A DNA stretch of 64,000 nt, from the NCBI RefSeq assembly GCF_003790525.1, contig NZ_CP033635.1; one strand, given 5' to 3'. This document shows, one piece after another, positions 21,001 through 24,000 of the stretch; within the stretch, counting starts at the first letter, position 1, and each line of letters begins with the position of its first letter. The position numbers were made by a program. Source of the stretch: Escherichia coli. GTDB taxonomy: Bacteria > Pseudomonadota > Gammaproteobacteria > Enterobacterales > Enterobacteriaceae.

Positions 21001-24000
21001 ATTCGCGGGTTTATCCCTCATAGTCGCCTGTCCGGTGCGATGGTGGAAGAAACCGGAAGCTGTATTACAGAAAGTGCTACTACTGTATCCTGATGCGATG
21101 TATGTAATGTGAGTCAGATAATGGCACAGGATGTGGTGATGTGGCAGTCTGGAACACAGGATATATTGTCAGAATAAGACCCGTAGGAATAAAAATGAAA
21201 AGACGCCTTTCACTACTTTTTCTGTTATCTGCCCTGGCAGTGGGATGCTCGCAGCAAAAAGCTGATGAGCCCCGGCAATTAGTGACGGTGTATCCACGAT
21301 ATCCGGAATATGCTGCAGCAAATTATATCAAGGGGCTGGTTGAGGTTAAGTTCGATATTGGTGCTGACGGGACTGTGACACGGATCGTTTTTCTCCGCTC
21401 AGAGCCTCATAATTTGTTTCGTGATGAAGTGGTGAAGGCCATGGCGAAATGGAGATTTGAAAAGAATAGTCCCCGTCAGGGAGTGAAGAGACAATTTATC
21501 TTTACGCCATCACGTCCCTGATGCTTCCAGGTAGAGAGGGGCTGGAAGCAGGAGAAAAATGAAAGAGCCAGCGGTTATATTTTTGTCATGGCTGACGAGA
21601 AATGATGGAAGAAGGCGTTGTATGCCACACAACGCCTCACTGTTCATTTCTTCTTTTTCTCTGGTGTAACCCGATGAATAAGAGTTGCACTGGTTTCCGG
21701 TGAGATGGCGATATGCTCGGGCAAAGTATGCTGGCAGTTTTCCAACTGGTCAAAAATATCTGCTCTCGTCTGTTGCAATGCCTGCAGCATGCGGCGGCAA
21801 TGCGCCTTTGCTTTTGCTAACCATCTTTCCTTCCTCTATCAGTCGCTGCGTGAACTCATCATGGAATACCAGGTAAATGCGGATGTTATCGGTTTTGGCT
21901 ACGCAGCATAGTACAAAACGGACAGGTGCATCCCGGAATGGGGGAGGCGTCACATGTCCCTGTGATGGTTGTTCCGGGTAATGCACTGTGTGGGGCATAA
22001 AAATGTCCGATAATTTTACTTTCTACCGCAGTTAGTTGATTCGTTGGTCCTGGTAGCACATTGGGCGAGGGTTTAAATGCCAGGCAACTGAAGGATGATG
22101 TTGCAAGGGAGATAGCGAGAATATTTCTGATTTTCATTTGATGATGCCTCTGTGTGAAATGACGGTAAACGACGCACTTGTGCCGGCACATAATAGCAAG
22201 CATCAGAATAGATCAGATTCGATTCTTGCTGTAAGTGATAATTATTCTCGTTTTTTCGGGTCCTTTCCGGCGATCCAACAGGTTACGGGGCGTCGACCTC
22301 GCGGGTTTTCGCTATTTATGAAAATTTTCCGGTTTAAGGCATTTCCGTTCTTCTTCGTCGTAACTTAATGTTTTTATTTAAAATACCCCCTGAAAAGAAA
22401 GGAAACGACAGGTGCTGAAAACGAGCTTTTGGGCCTCTGTCGTTTCCTTTCTCTGTTTTTGGCCGTGGAATGAACAATGGAAGTCAACAAAAAGCAGCTG
22501 GCTGACATTTTCGGTGCGAGTATCCGTACCATTCAGAACTGGCAGGAGCAGGGAATGCCCGTTCTGCGAGGCGGTGGGAAGGGTAATGAGGTGCTTTATG
22601 ACTCTGCCGCCGTCATAAAATGGTATGCCGAAAGGGATGCTGAAATTGAGAACGAAAAGCTGCGCCGGGAGGTTGAAGAACTGCGGCAGGCCAGCGAGAC
22701 AGATCTGCAGCCCGGTACGATTGATTACGAACGCTACCGTCTCACAAAAGCACAGGCAGATGCGCAGGAACTGAAAAATGCTCGTGAAGAAGGGCTGGTT
22801 CTTGAAACGGAATTATTTACCTACATTTTTCAGCGAGTTGCGCAGAATATATCCGGGATCCTTGTTCGTGTTCCGCAGACACTGCAGCGTAAATACCCTG
22901 ATATATCACCAGCACATCTTGATGCTGTGAAAACTGAAATCGCGAAAGCATCCGATGTGGCTTCTGAATCAGGTGAGAATGTGTGGAGGTGGATTGATGA
23001 TTTCAGACGAGCTGAGGGCGGCTAACTCTACAGGAGCGATAACGACTGGTCTCCTTGCGCTAAAAATTCCTGTACCCCTGACGACAGTTCAGTGGGCAGA
23101 TCAACATTATTACCTGCCGAAAGAGTCGTCTTACACACCAGGGCGGTGGGAAACATTGCCGTTTCAGGTTGCCATAATGAACAGTATGGGTAATGACCTG
23201 ATCCGCACTGTTAATCTGATTAAATCTGCCCGTGTTGGTTATACAAAAATGCTGTTGGGAGTGGAGGCTTATTTTATTGAGCATAAATCCCGCAACAGTC
23301 TGCTTTTTCAGCCCACGGACTCAGCTGCTGAAGATTTTATGAAATCTCATGTTGAGCCAACGATAAGGGATGTTCCTGCATTGCTGGAGCTGGCTCCATG
23401 GTTCGGAAGAAAACACCGCGATAATACGCTCACCCTGAAGCGTTTTTCCTCCGGTGTGGGGTTCTGGTGTCTGGGTGGTGCGGCAGCAAAAAACTACCGT
23501 GAAAAATCCGTGGATGTGGTCTGTTATGACGAGCTTTCCTCGTTCGAACCGGATGTTGAAAAAGAGGGCTCGCCAACCCTGCTGGGGGATAAGCGTATTG
23601 AGGGCTCTGTATGGCCAAAATCCATTCGCGGCTCGACGCCTAAAATCAAAGGCTCCTGCCAGATCGAAAAAGCCGCTAACGAGTCGGCACATTTCATGCG
23701 TTTTTATGTGCCCTGCCCGCACTGTGGGGAGGAGCAGTATCTGAAATTTGGCGATGAATCCACGCCTTTTGGCCTTAAATGGGAGAAGGAAAGCCCCGAA
23801 AGCGTTTTCTACCTTTGTGAGCATCATGGCTGTGTGATCCATCAGTCTGAGCTTGACCAGAGTAACGGGCGGTGGATCTGTGAAAACACGGGCATGTGGA
23901 CCCGTGACGGCCTGATGTTTTTCAGCGCCCGGGGTGATGAAATTCCGCCGCCGCGCTCCATCACTTTCCATATCTGGACGGCGTACAGTCCGTTCACCAC

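What the first reader, a model, noticed from the sequence alone, without database searches (positions are those of the whole stretch)
22288..22470. cos site differs from lambda cosN by one base within the 12-nt cohesive end
The cohesive end reads gggcgtcgacct versus lambda gggcggcgacct, while flanking cos sequence and nu1 are almost identical to lambda. A single change in cosN could affect nicking or annealing, or indicate a naturally variant but functional cos.
Basis: partly seen in the sequence, partly recalled or inferred. Interest (0 to 1): 0.3.

Follow-up and report, generated by a model that had tools for sequence, protein, structure and literature searches.

The report
Natural one-base variant of lambda cos
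The prophage's DNA-packaging cut site differs from phage lambda's by one central base, but this is a recurring natural allele shared by related E. coli prophages and satellite islands, at the first position inward from the left nick where single-base variants were found, so it is an ordinary polymorphism rather than a defect or a new mechanism.

Summary
Observation confirmed. Window 22288-22299 reads GGGCGTCGACCT against lambda GGGCGGCGACCT (G6T, base 22293). It sits in a true cos site: cosQ, I2, the R3 core, R2 and R1 are identical to lambda, 210/220 bp overall.

TerS residues 1-74 are 100% lambda; the rest of TerS and TerL are phage-21 type (TerL 95.4% to 21 gp2, 67% to lambda gpA). The prophage, inserted in ompW, looks intact.

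The T allele is not private. It occurs with at least 12 different cosB flanks in prophages and PICI-like islands: at least 41 sites in 16 of 5,426 complete E. coli genomes, 7 IMG/VR contigs, 13 metagenome contigs, and 9 of 10 assemblies encoding this exact TerS. The tenth has G on a 99.2% identical terminase segment.

IMG/VR scans found no single-base variants at bp 2-5, 9 at bp 6 and 7 at bp 7. A 99.9-100% identical prophage sits in ompW of strain TUM1886, whose trp flank is only 95-98.5% identical, implying recent spread.

Best reading: a tolerated, functional cosN polymorphism spread by recombination at cos. Cleavage was not tested, and no deposited virion genome carries T. Interest is low.

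The parts
22258..22264 (+). cosQ heptamer GGGTCCT (lambda -30..-24), the packaging termination signal
   Evidence: Identical to lambda in the alignment. The role is from the literature (PMC4669245).
22286..22301 (+). cosN, 16 bp: CG|GGGCGTCGACCT|CG. Predicted nicks lie between 22287/22288 (top strand) and 22299/22300 (bottom strand).
   Evidence: The flanking CG dinucleotides and bp 1-5 are identical to lambda. Nick positions are inferred from lambda, not measured.
22288..22299 (+). 12-nt cohesive-end sequence GGGCGTCGACCT. The variant base T is at 22293 (bp 6). It breaks the central symmetric pair 6/7 (8 of 16 bp symmetric instead of 10) and creates GTCGAC.
   Evidence: The symmetry count follows the 10-of-16 description in PMC9026076 applied to the sequence.
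22305..22337 (+). I2 spacer/bend segment (lambda bp 18-50)
   Evidence: Identical to lambda. The role is from PMC4856287.
22337..22352 (+). cosB R3 (lambda bp 50-65), AGGCATTTCCGTTCTT. There is one change, G54A, outside the TerS-contacted core bp 55-63.
   Evidence: The extent of R3 and its core is from PMC9026076.
22394..22409 (+). cosB R2 (approximately lambda bp 107-122)
   Evidence: Identical to lambda. Coordinates are approximate and taken from the annotated phage 21 record.
22436..22452 (+). cosB R1 (approximately lambda bp 150-166)
   Evidence: Identical to lambda.
22477..23025 (+). terS (nu1), 182 aa, a natural lambda/21 chimera. Residues 1-74 are the lambda Nu1 DNA-binding domain; residues 75-182 are phage-21 gp1 type.
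   Evidence: N-terminal part 100% lambda; C-terminal part 85% phage 21, 97-98% GF60/TUM1886. Pfam Phage_Nu1 E=8.5e-92.
22997..24925 (+). terL (gene A/2 homologue), phage-21 type. The longest ORF starts at 22955; 22997 corresponds to the start annotated by PGAP in TUM1886.
   Evidence: 67% identical to lambda gpA and 95.4% to phage 21 gp2. Pfam GpA_ATPase and GpA_nuclease are both full length. PGAP start.
22329..22620 (+). Packaging-specificity cassette (cosB plus terS codons 1-48). This is the only segment between 2268 and 41001 that does not align to the TUM1886 ompW prophage. It is identical to the cassette of TUM1886's other T-allele prophage.
969..54727 (+). Lambdoid prophage inserted in ompW (integrase 1012-2142 on the minus strand). 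Head and tail genes are intact. There are two IS1414 copies, at 43230-44549 and 52467-53781.

Best explanation
Window 22258-22476 is a working-type lambda-family cos site of an apparently intact prophage. Its cosN carries a naturally circulating allele with T instead of G at bp 6 of the cohesive end.

Inferred mechanism, by homology to lambda and phage 21: the lambda-type DNA-binding domain of TerS binds R3/R2/R1 of the lambda-type cosB. Its 21-type C-terminal part holds the 21-type TerL. TerL then nicks the top strand at 22287/22288 and the bottom strand at 22299/22300. This gives 5' overhangs GGGCGTCGACCT and AGGTCGACGCCC, which are fully complementary to each other.

Bp 6 lies next to the dyad, farthest from the left nick. 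It is the first position, counting in from the left nick, at which nature tolerates change. The allele is therefore most likely neutral or nearly so for cleavage.

It probably spread among 21-type phages and PICI satellites by recombination in the conserved cosQ-cosN-I2 segment. The double-strand break that terminase makes at cos is a known recombination hot spot in lambda, and co-resident elements here visibly exchange modules.

Shown: the sequence, its context, its distribution and the mosaic junctions. Inferred: cleavage, neutrality and the route of spread.
For: 1. It is a real cos site: 210/220 bp identical to lambda, with all functional subsites conserved, followed by full-length Nu1-type TerS and gpA-type TerL.

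2. It is not an error or a private lesion. T occurs with about 12 distinct right flanks and more than 5 left spacers. Counts: at least 41 sites in 16 complete E. coli genomes, 7 IMG/VR contigs and 13 cos-like metagenome contigs.

3. Nine of 10 assemblies encoding exactly this TerS have T, in 3 left-flank contexts. One has G on a segment from cosN into terL that is 99.2% identical, so both alleles occur with the same terminase.

4. Position-specific tolerance. IMG/VR scans for single-base variants gave 0 at bp 2, 3, 4 and 5, 8 T plus 1 A at bp 6 and 7 at bp 7. The A allele sits next to a TerL 100% identical to lambda's.

5. Recent mobility. The TUM1886 ompW prophage is 99.9-100% identical over 20 kb, while the adjacent trp operon is only 95-98.5% identical.

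6. TerL of T-allele phages differs from G-allele 21-type TerLs at only 4 lineage-specific residues. Two of these fall within the Pfam nuclease domain, in a stretch that aligns with a gap to lambda gpA. There is therefore no sign of a retargeted nuclease.

7. PICI-like cos pairs carry mixed alleles (T with G in L144 and L149).

8. Published work shows that central and right-half cosN changes, and even mismatched cohesive ends, are tolerated (PMC4669245).
Against: No cleavage or virion-end data exist for this allele. None of 50,697 deposited phage genomes carries T with the flanks tested, and none of the GTDB species representatives has it.

Feiss et al. [quoted passage not shown] Bp 6 itself was not covered by any text I could read.

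Among sites with a lambda-type right flank in complete E. coli genomes, T is very rare: 3 against 7,470. A modest fitness cost is therefore not excluded.
Confidence: 0.75

Rival explanations
1. The T allele is a specificity allele. The 21-type TerL of this lineage prefers or requires T at bp 6. The PICIs that parasitise these phages have matched it, or the phage changed cosN to escape G-type PICIs. The allele would then mark a private packaging-compatibility group.
For: T sites are strongly clustered. Seven genomes carry T with both left-flank types, against 0.024 expected (P = 7.5e-18 if genomes were independent). Up to 7 T sites occur per genome. T is present in phages and PICI-like islands alike. 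All T phages with a readable TerL have a 21-type TerL, and none of about 44 loci with lambda-type TerL does. Nine of 10 contigs with this exact TerS have T.
Against: Genomes are related and not independent. T genomes also carry G cos sites with the same left flank. PICI-like cos pairs mix T and G (L144, L149). One assembly has G with the identical TerS and a 99.2% identical terminase segment (L168). Only 4 TerL residues are specific to the T lineage, and none is at a known catalytic position. Phage 21 itself and 95-97% identical TerLs go with G. Published terminases show no cosN specificity for the natural variants tested (PMC4669245).
Confidence: 0.08
2. The change is a mildly or strongly deleterious mutation carried passively in prophages that are no longer packaged efficiently.
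For: No virion-derived genome with T is in the phage collection. The left half of cosN is reported to be under selection (PMC4669245). The central symmetric pair 6/7 is lost. The prophage carries two IS1414 copies.
Against: The allele recurs in about 12 cos contexts, including PICI-like islands that must be packaged to spread. A near-identical prophage sits in hosts with 2-5% divergent flanks. All head, tail and terminase genes checked are full length. Bp 6 also varies to A beside a lambda-type TerL.
Confidence: 0.12
3. The T is a sequencing or assembly error in this window.
For: None beyond its being a single base.
Against: The same base is present in dozens of independent assemblies and metagenomes. 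One of these, contig L174, is 100% identical over the 300 bp to the left and the 2,238 bp to the right of it.
Confidence: 0.01

Closest known systems
Phage lambda cos (cosQ-cosN-I2-cosB) with Nu1/gpA terminase
   Same: Same architecture and spacing. cosQ, bp 1-5 and 7-12 of cosN, I2, the R3 core, R2 and R1 are identical. TerS residues 1-74 are identical.
   Different: Bp 6 is T, not G, and there are nine other substitutions or indels in 220 bp. The TerS C-terminal part and TerL are not lambda's (44% and 67% identity).
Phage 21 terminase (gp1/gp2) and the laboratory lambda-21 hybrid phages used by the Feiss laboratory
   Same: TerL is 95.4% identical to 21 gp2, and TerS residues 75-182 are 85% identical to gp1. 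A junction inside terS that joins the cosB-binding domain of one phage to the TerL-binding part of another is the design of the lambda/21 hybrids (hybrid helper phages are listed in PMC4669245; the domain logic is from my knowledge of Frackman, Siegele and Feiss 1985).
   Different: cosB and the TerS DNA-binding domain are lambda-type, not 21-type. Phage 21 has the canonical G at bp 6. This chimera is natural.
Natural cosN variants of lambda-like phages (N15 and phiD326 at bp 9 and 12; Gifsy-1 at bp 8, 9 and 11; mEp213/LLS GGGCGGCGCGCT)
   Same: A naturally occurring change inside the 12-nt cohesive end, with the nick-flanking bases conserved (PMC4669245, PMC12315714).
   Different: Those changes lie in bp 7-12; this one is at bp 6, nominally the left half. 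The survey by Vahanian et al. 2017 (Virology 509:140) was not readable here. My recollection is that it reports variation at bp 6-12 and strict conservation of bp 1-5, which would already cover this position.
cos sites of Gram-negative PICIs (EcCICFT073 type, with cos1 and cos2)
   Same: The T allele is shared with PICI-like islands that keep cosQ and cosN but have their own cosB, including convergent cos pairs 460-990 bp apart (PMC6739421, PMC9026076).
   Different: The window element is a full prophage with its own terminase, not a satellite.

Membership tests
Lambda-like cos site (12-nt 5' cohesive ends) | cosN core with conserved bp 1-5 and CG dinucleotides flanking both nick sites | tested here: met
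   CG|GGGCG.CGACCT|CG at 22286-22301
Lambda-like cos site (12-nt 5' cohesive ends) | cosQ heptamer upstream of cosN at lambda spacing | tested here: met
   GGGTCCT at 22258-22264, i.e. -30..-24
Lambda-like cos site (12-nt 5' cohesive ends) | cosB with R3, R2 and R1 and correct cosN-R3 spacing | tested here: met
   I2 is identical and there is no indel between cosN and R3. The R3 core, R2 and R1 are identical.
Lambda-like cos site (12-nt 5' cohesive ends) | Adjacent Nu1-type TerS and gpA-type TerL genes | tested here: met
   Pfam Phage_Nu1, GpA_ATPase and GpA_nuclease
Lambda-like cos site (12-nt 5' cohesive ends) | Cohesive-end sequence identical to lambda (GGGCGGCGACCT) | tested here: not met
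   G6T. Identity is not required for family membership: N15, Gifsy-1 and phiD326 also differ (PMC4669245).
Lambda-like cos site (12-nt 5' cohesive ends) | Terminase actually nicks here to give 12-nt 5' overhangs | not testable with these tools
   Needs virion end sequencing or an in vitro cos cleavage assay.
Phage 21 packaging specificity | 21-type TerL | tested here: met
   95.4% aa identity to gp2
Phage 21 packaging specificity | 21-type cosB and gp1 DNA-binding domain | tested here: not met
   TerS residues 1-74 are 54% identical to gp1 and 100% to lambda Nu1. cosB is lambda-type.
Lambda packaging specificity | Lambda cosB plus Nu1 DNA-binding domain | tested here: met
Lambda packaging specificity | Lambda gpA | tested here: not met
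   67% identity

The most novel reading that the evidence does not exclude
The bp-6 T allele is not neutral. It defines a packaging-compatibility group: a lineage of 21-type terminases that cuts T-cosN preferentially, together with the PICI satellites that have matched it. cosN, and not only cosB, would then take part in the phage-satellite specificity contest. The clustering of up to 7 T sites per genome would be its footprint.
Probability: 0.07. Interest if true: 0.55.

Novelty: new member of a known kind. Interest (0 to 1): 0.17.

Why it matters
The result matters little on its own. It places the boundary of sequence constraint in cosN between bp 5 and bp 6. That agrees with the published functional asymmetry of cosN, and with my unverified recollection of the 2017 survey of natural variants.

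It also gives a natural test substrate, G, T or A at the dyad-proximal base, for asking whether TerL reads the centre of cosN.

The surroundings are more instructive than the base change. A lambda cosB/TerS-DNA-binding cassette has been swapped into a 21-type terminase between prophages that co-reside in a related strain. This shows that packaging specificity is exchanged as a roughly 290-bp module with one junction close to cosN.

Tried and rejected
1. Chance match. The 12-mer alone is not significant, but the 220-bp context settles it.

2. Sequencing error. Rejected by recurrence.

3. My first estimate that T is almost unique (3 against 7,470 sites) was an artefact of requiring the lambda-type right flank. 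Left-flank-anchored queries and exact-pattern scans found many more.

4. Co-evolution of TerL with T. Only 4 lineage-specific residues were found, which is uninformative.

5. Obligatory matching of alleles in PICI cos pairs. Rejected, because mixed T/G pairs exist.

6. Search for a virion genome with T in 50,697 phage records. None was found with three different queries.

7. GTDB species representatives. No T was found with two patterns.

8. Vahanian et al. 2017 could not be retrieved. A full-text search for the 12-mer found only unrelated primers.

9. The new GTCGAC palindrome as a self-annealing or restriction feature. By inspection of the overhang sequence, like ends could pair over only 6 bp, offset from the nicks, so the product would not be ligatable. 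No evidence of any role was found.

Full report
**Observation**

The window reads GGGCGTCGACCT at 22288-22299. Lambda (NC_001416) begins GGGCGGCGACCT. The single difference is G to T at bp 6 of the cohesive end, window base 22293.

A 12-mer with one mismatch is expected 0.26 times per 64-kb window, so it is not significant by itself. The context is decisive. From cosQ to the nu1 start codon (22258-22476) the window matches lambda -30..190 at 210 of 220 positions. cosQ (GGGTCCT), the CG dinucleotides flanking both nick sites, I2 (bp 18-50), the TerS-contacted core of R3 (bp 55-63), R2 and R1 are all identical.

**What surrounds it**

- TerS (22477-23025) is 100% identical to lambda Nu1 over residues 1-74, the winged-helix DNA-binding domain. 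It is only 44% identical over residues 75-182.
- That C-terminal part is 85% identical to phage 21 gp1 and 97-98% identical to TerS of E. coli prophages in strains GF60 and TUM1886.
- TerL is 67% identical to lambda gpA and 95.4% identical to phage 21 gp2.
- Pfam finds full-length Phage_Nu1, GpA_ATPase plus GpA_nuclease, lambda-family portal, S49 protease, capsid protein E and an integrase. The tail genes are present as long ORFs.
- The element is a prophage of about 54 kb inserted in the 3' end of ompW, next to the trp operon, and carries two IS1414 copies.

The terminase is therefore a natural lambda/21 chimera. It has lambda cosB and the lambda DNA-binding domain, and a 21-type TerL-binding segment and TerL.

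**Origin of the chimera**

E. coli TUM1886 carries a prophage in the same ompW site.
- It is 99.945% identical to window 2268-22328 and 99.54% identical to 22621-41001. Only 22329-22620 (cosB plus terS codons 1-48) fails to align.
- In that interval the TUM1886 prophage has a 21-type cosB and a 21-type TerS domain.
- The window's version of the interval is identical to a second TUM1886 prophage at 2.25 Mb.
- Both TUM1886 prophages encode the same TerL and portal proteins (identical accessions), and both have T at bp 6.

Packaging specificity has therefore been exchanged as a cassette of about 290 bp between phages that co-reside in a related strain, with one junction 29 bp past cosN. Against GF60, homology breaks 4 bp past cosN.

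**How common is the T allele**

My first count was misleading. With a 43-mer that requires the lambda-type right flank, T occurs at 3 sites and G at 7,470 sites in 5,426 complete E. coli genomes. Queries anchored on the left spacer gave a different picture.
- T occurs at 12 sites in 10 genomes with spacer GGCGATCCAACAGGTTACG.
- T occurs at 29 sites in 13 genomes with spacer GGCATGTGGACCCGTTACG. G with that same spacer occurs at 265 sites in 208 genomes.
- Exact-pattern scans found T in 7 IMG/VR contigs and in 16 metagenome contigs, 13 of which have cos-like flanks.
- Altogether T is seen with about 12 different right flanks (cosB types) and more than 5 left spacers. The carriers are full prophages (window, TUM1886 twice, GF60, L128) and PICI-like islands, such as the island beside thiM in strains PKF11 and PKF4.
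- Several of these islands have two convergent cos sites, as described for EcCICFT073 (PMC6739421).
- Of 10 assemblies that encode exactly the window's chimeric TerS, 9 have T, in three left-flank contexts. One has G on a segment from cosN into terL that is 99.2% identical. One contig matches the window perfectly on both sides.
- No deposited phage genome has T with the flanks tested. No GTDB species representative has it.

**Is bp 6 a tolerant position**

I scanned IMG/VR for single-base variants of the canonical site (GTTACG + 12 nt + CGCG), one position at a time.

| Position | Single-base variants found |
|---|---|
| bp 2 | 0 |
| bp 3 | 0 |
| bp 4 | 0 |
| bp 5 | 0 |
| bp 6 | 8 T and 1 A |
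| bp 7 | 7 contigs |

The A allele lies beside a TerL that is 100% identical to lambda's over the 374 residues available. T at bp 6 also occurs combined with right-half changes, as GGGCGTCGAACC and GGGCGTGGAACC. In nature the constraint therefore ends between bp 5 and bp 6.

This fits the published functional asymmetry of cosN: left-half mutations near the nick are severe, and right-half changes are harmless (PMC4669245). It also fits the statement that the first four bases and the flanking bases are conserved among lambda-like phages (PMC9303873, citing Vahanian et al. 2017). I could not read Vahanian et al. 2017. My recollection is that it reports natural variation at bp 6-12 and strict conservation of bp 1-5.

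**Evidence that T sites are used**

This evidence is indirect.
- PICI-like islands spread only by being packaged, yet they carry T in many contexts.
- The ompW prophage is 99.9-100% identical between the window and TUM1886. The adjacent trp operon is only 95-98.5% identical between the two hosts, and equally distant from K-12. The prophage therefore arrived more recently than the hosts diverged.
- The T-lineage TerL differs from G-associated 21-type TerLs at only four lineage-specific residues. Two lie within the Pfam nuclease domain, at residues 546 and 553, in a stretch that aligns with a gap to lambda gpA.
- G and T both occur with the identical TerS.
- Convergent PICI-like cos pairs can carry T on one side and G on the other (L144, L149).

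**Mechanism**

The steps below are inferred from lambda and phage 21.
- TerS binds the lambda-type R sites, with the bend at I1. It positions the 21-type TerL on cosN.
- Nicks at 22287/22288 (top strand) and 22299/22300 (bottom strand) release 5'-GGGCGTCGACCT and 5'-AGGTCGACGCCC.
- Both ends of a chromosome are cut from the same allele, so annealing is perfect. The calculated 12-mer Tm falls from 52.8 to 48.4 C.
- The change removes the central symmetric pair 6/7, leaving 8 of 16 bp symmetric instead of 10, and creates GTCGAC. I found no evidence that either matters.
- A G/T mismatch would arise only in mixed packaging series. A two-base mismatch costs lambda about fourfold in yield (PMC4669245).

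**The one odd feature**

T sites are clustered.
- Seven genomes carry T with both left spacers, against 0.024 expected (P about 7.5e-18 if genomes were independent, which they are not).
- Single genomes hold up to seven T sites.

The likeliest cause is concerted evolution. Co-resident lambdoid elements recombine in the conserved cosQ-cosN-I2 segment. The window and TUM1886 demonstrate such exchange, and it is expected because the terminase cut at cos is a recombination hot spot in lambda (established knowledge; cf. the Kobayashi/Stahl work cited in PMC12315714).

A more interesting alternative is that T marks a packaging-compatibility group of 21-type phages and their satellites. It is not excluded, but it is weakened by the mixed-allele pairs, by G sites in the same genomes and by the near-identity of the TerLs.

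**Verdict**

The interpretation "naturally variant but functional cos" is the supported one, and the assumption of a lambda terminase is not.

The feature is a new member of a known kind: a lambda-family cos site carrying a tolerated natural allele at the dyad-proximal base. Cleavage was not tested. Interest is low. The cassette swap and the allele clustering are the parts worth a second look.

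Noticed in passing
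window 22329-22620 (also L153, L004): A natural lambda/21 packaging-specificity swap. Only cosB plus terS codons 1-48 differ between the window prophage and the otherwise 99.5-99.9% identical TUM1886 ompW prophage. The window's cassette is identical to that of TUM1886's second prophage.
   Followed up: yes
E. coli complete genomes: T-allele cos sites cluster in a few genomes, many from chicken or other birds. Examples are LH50-c with 2+5 sites, PKF11 and PKF4 with 5 each, and TUM1886 with at least 3. Seven genomes carry T with both left-spacer types. Strain relatedness was not controlled for.
   Followed up: partly
L010, L028, L041, L042, L070, L082 (IMG/VR): The cohesive-end variant GGGCGGAAGGCG differs at all of bp 7-12. 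It has lambda-type flanks and, in the four loci where TerL could be scored, lies beside a TerL 99% identical to lambda gpA. It may be an extreme case of right-half tolerance, or possibly a rearranged site.
   Followed up: no
L057 (IMGVR_UViG_2778261513_000005), cohesive end ending at locus position 1831, minus strand: GGGCGACGACCT: A at bp 6, in a lambda-type cos beside a TerL 100% identical to lambda's over 374 residues.
   Followed up: partly
L132, L135, L138, L148, L144, L149, L005, L140, L136, L141: PICI-like islands with two convergent cos sites 460-990 bp apart (cf. cos1 and cos2 of EcCICFT073). Allele combinations include T/T, T/G, T/GGGCGGGAGCGT and T/GGGCGTCGAACC.
   Followed up: partly
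L158-L164 (IMG/VR): Single-base variants at bp 7. GGGCGGAGACCT occurs in five contigs sharing one PICI-like flank. GGGCGGTGACCT occurs in two contigs with lambda-type cosB.
   Followed up: partly
window 54728-64000 and 1-968: The host flanks (ompW, yciE/F/G, trpABCDE) are only about 94-98% identical to K-12 and to TUM1886. This suggests a divergent Escherichia lineage or a recombined trp region. The window is not among the RefSeq complete E. coli genomes searched.
   Followed up: partly
window 43230-44549 and 52467-53781: Two IS1414 (IS256-family) copies lie inside the prophage's right arm. The segment 44550-47200 has no counterpart in the TUM1886 prophage region compared.
   Followed up: no
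L005/L006 (PKF11 and PKF4, next to thiM): A T-allele island encoding a major capsid protein, a head decoration protein, a head-tail connector and a TerS, but no TerL in the region shown. This suggests a capsid-gene-bearing satellite.
   Followed up: no
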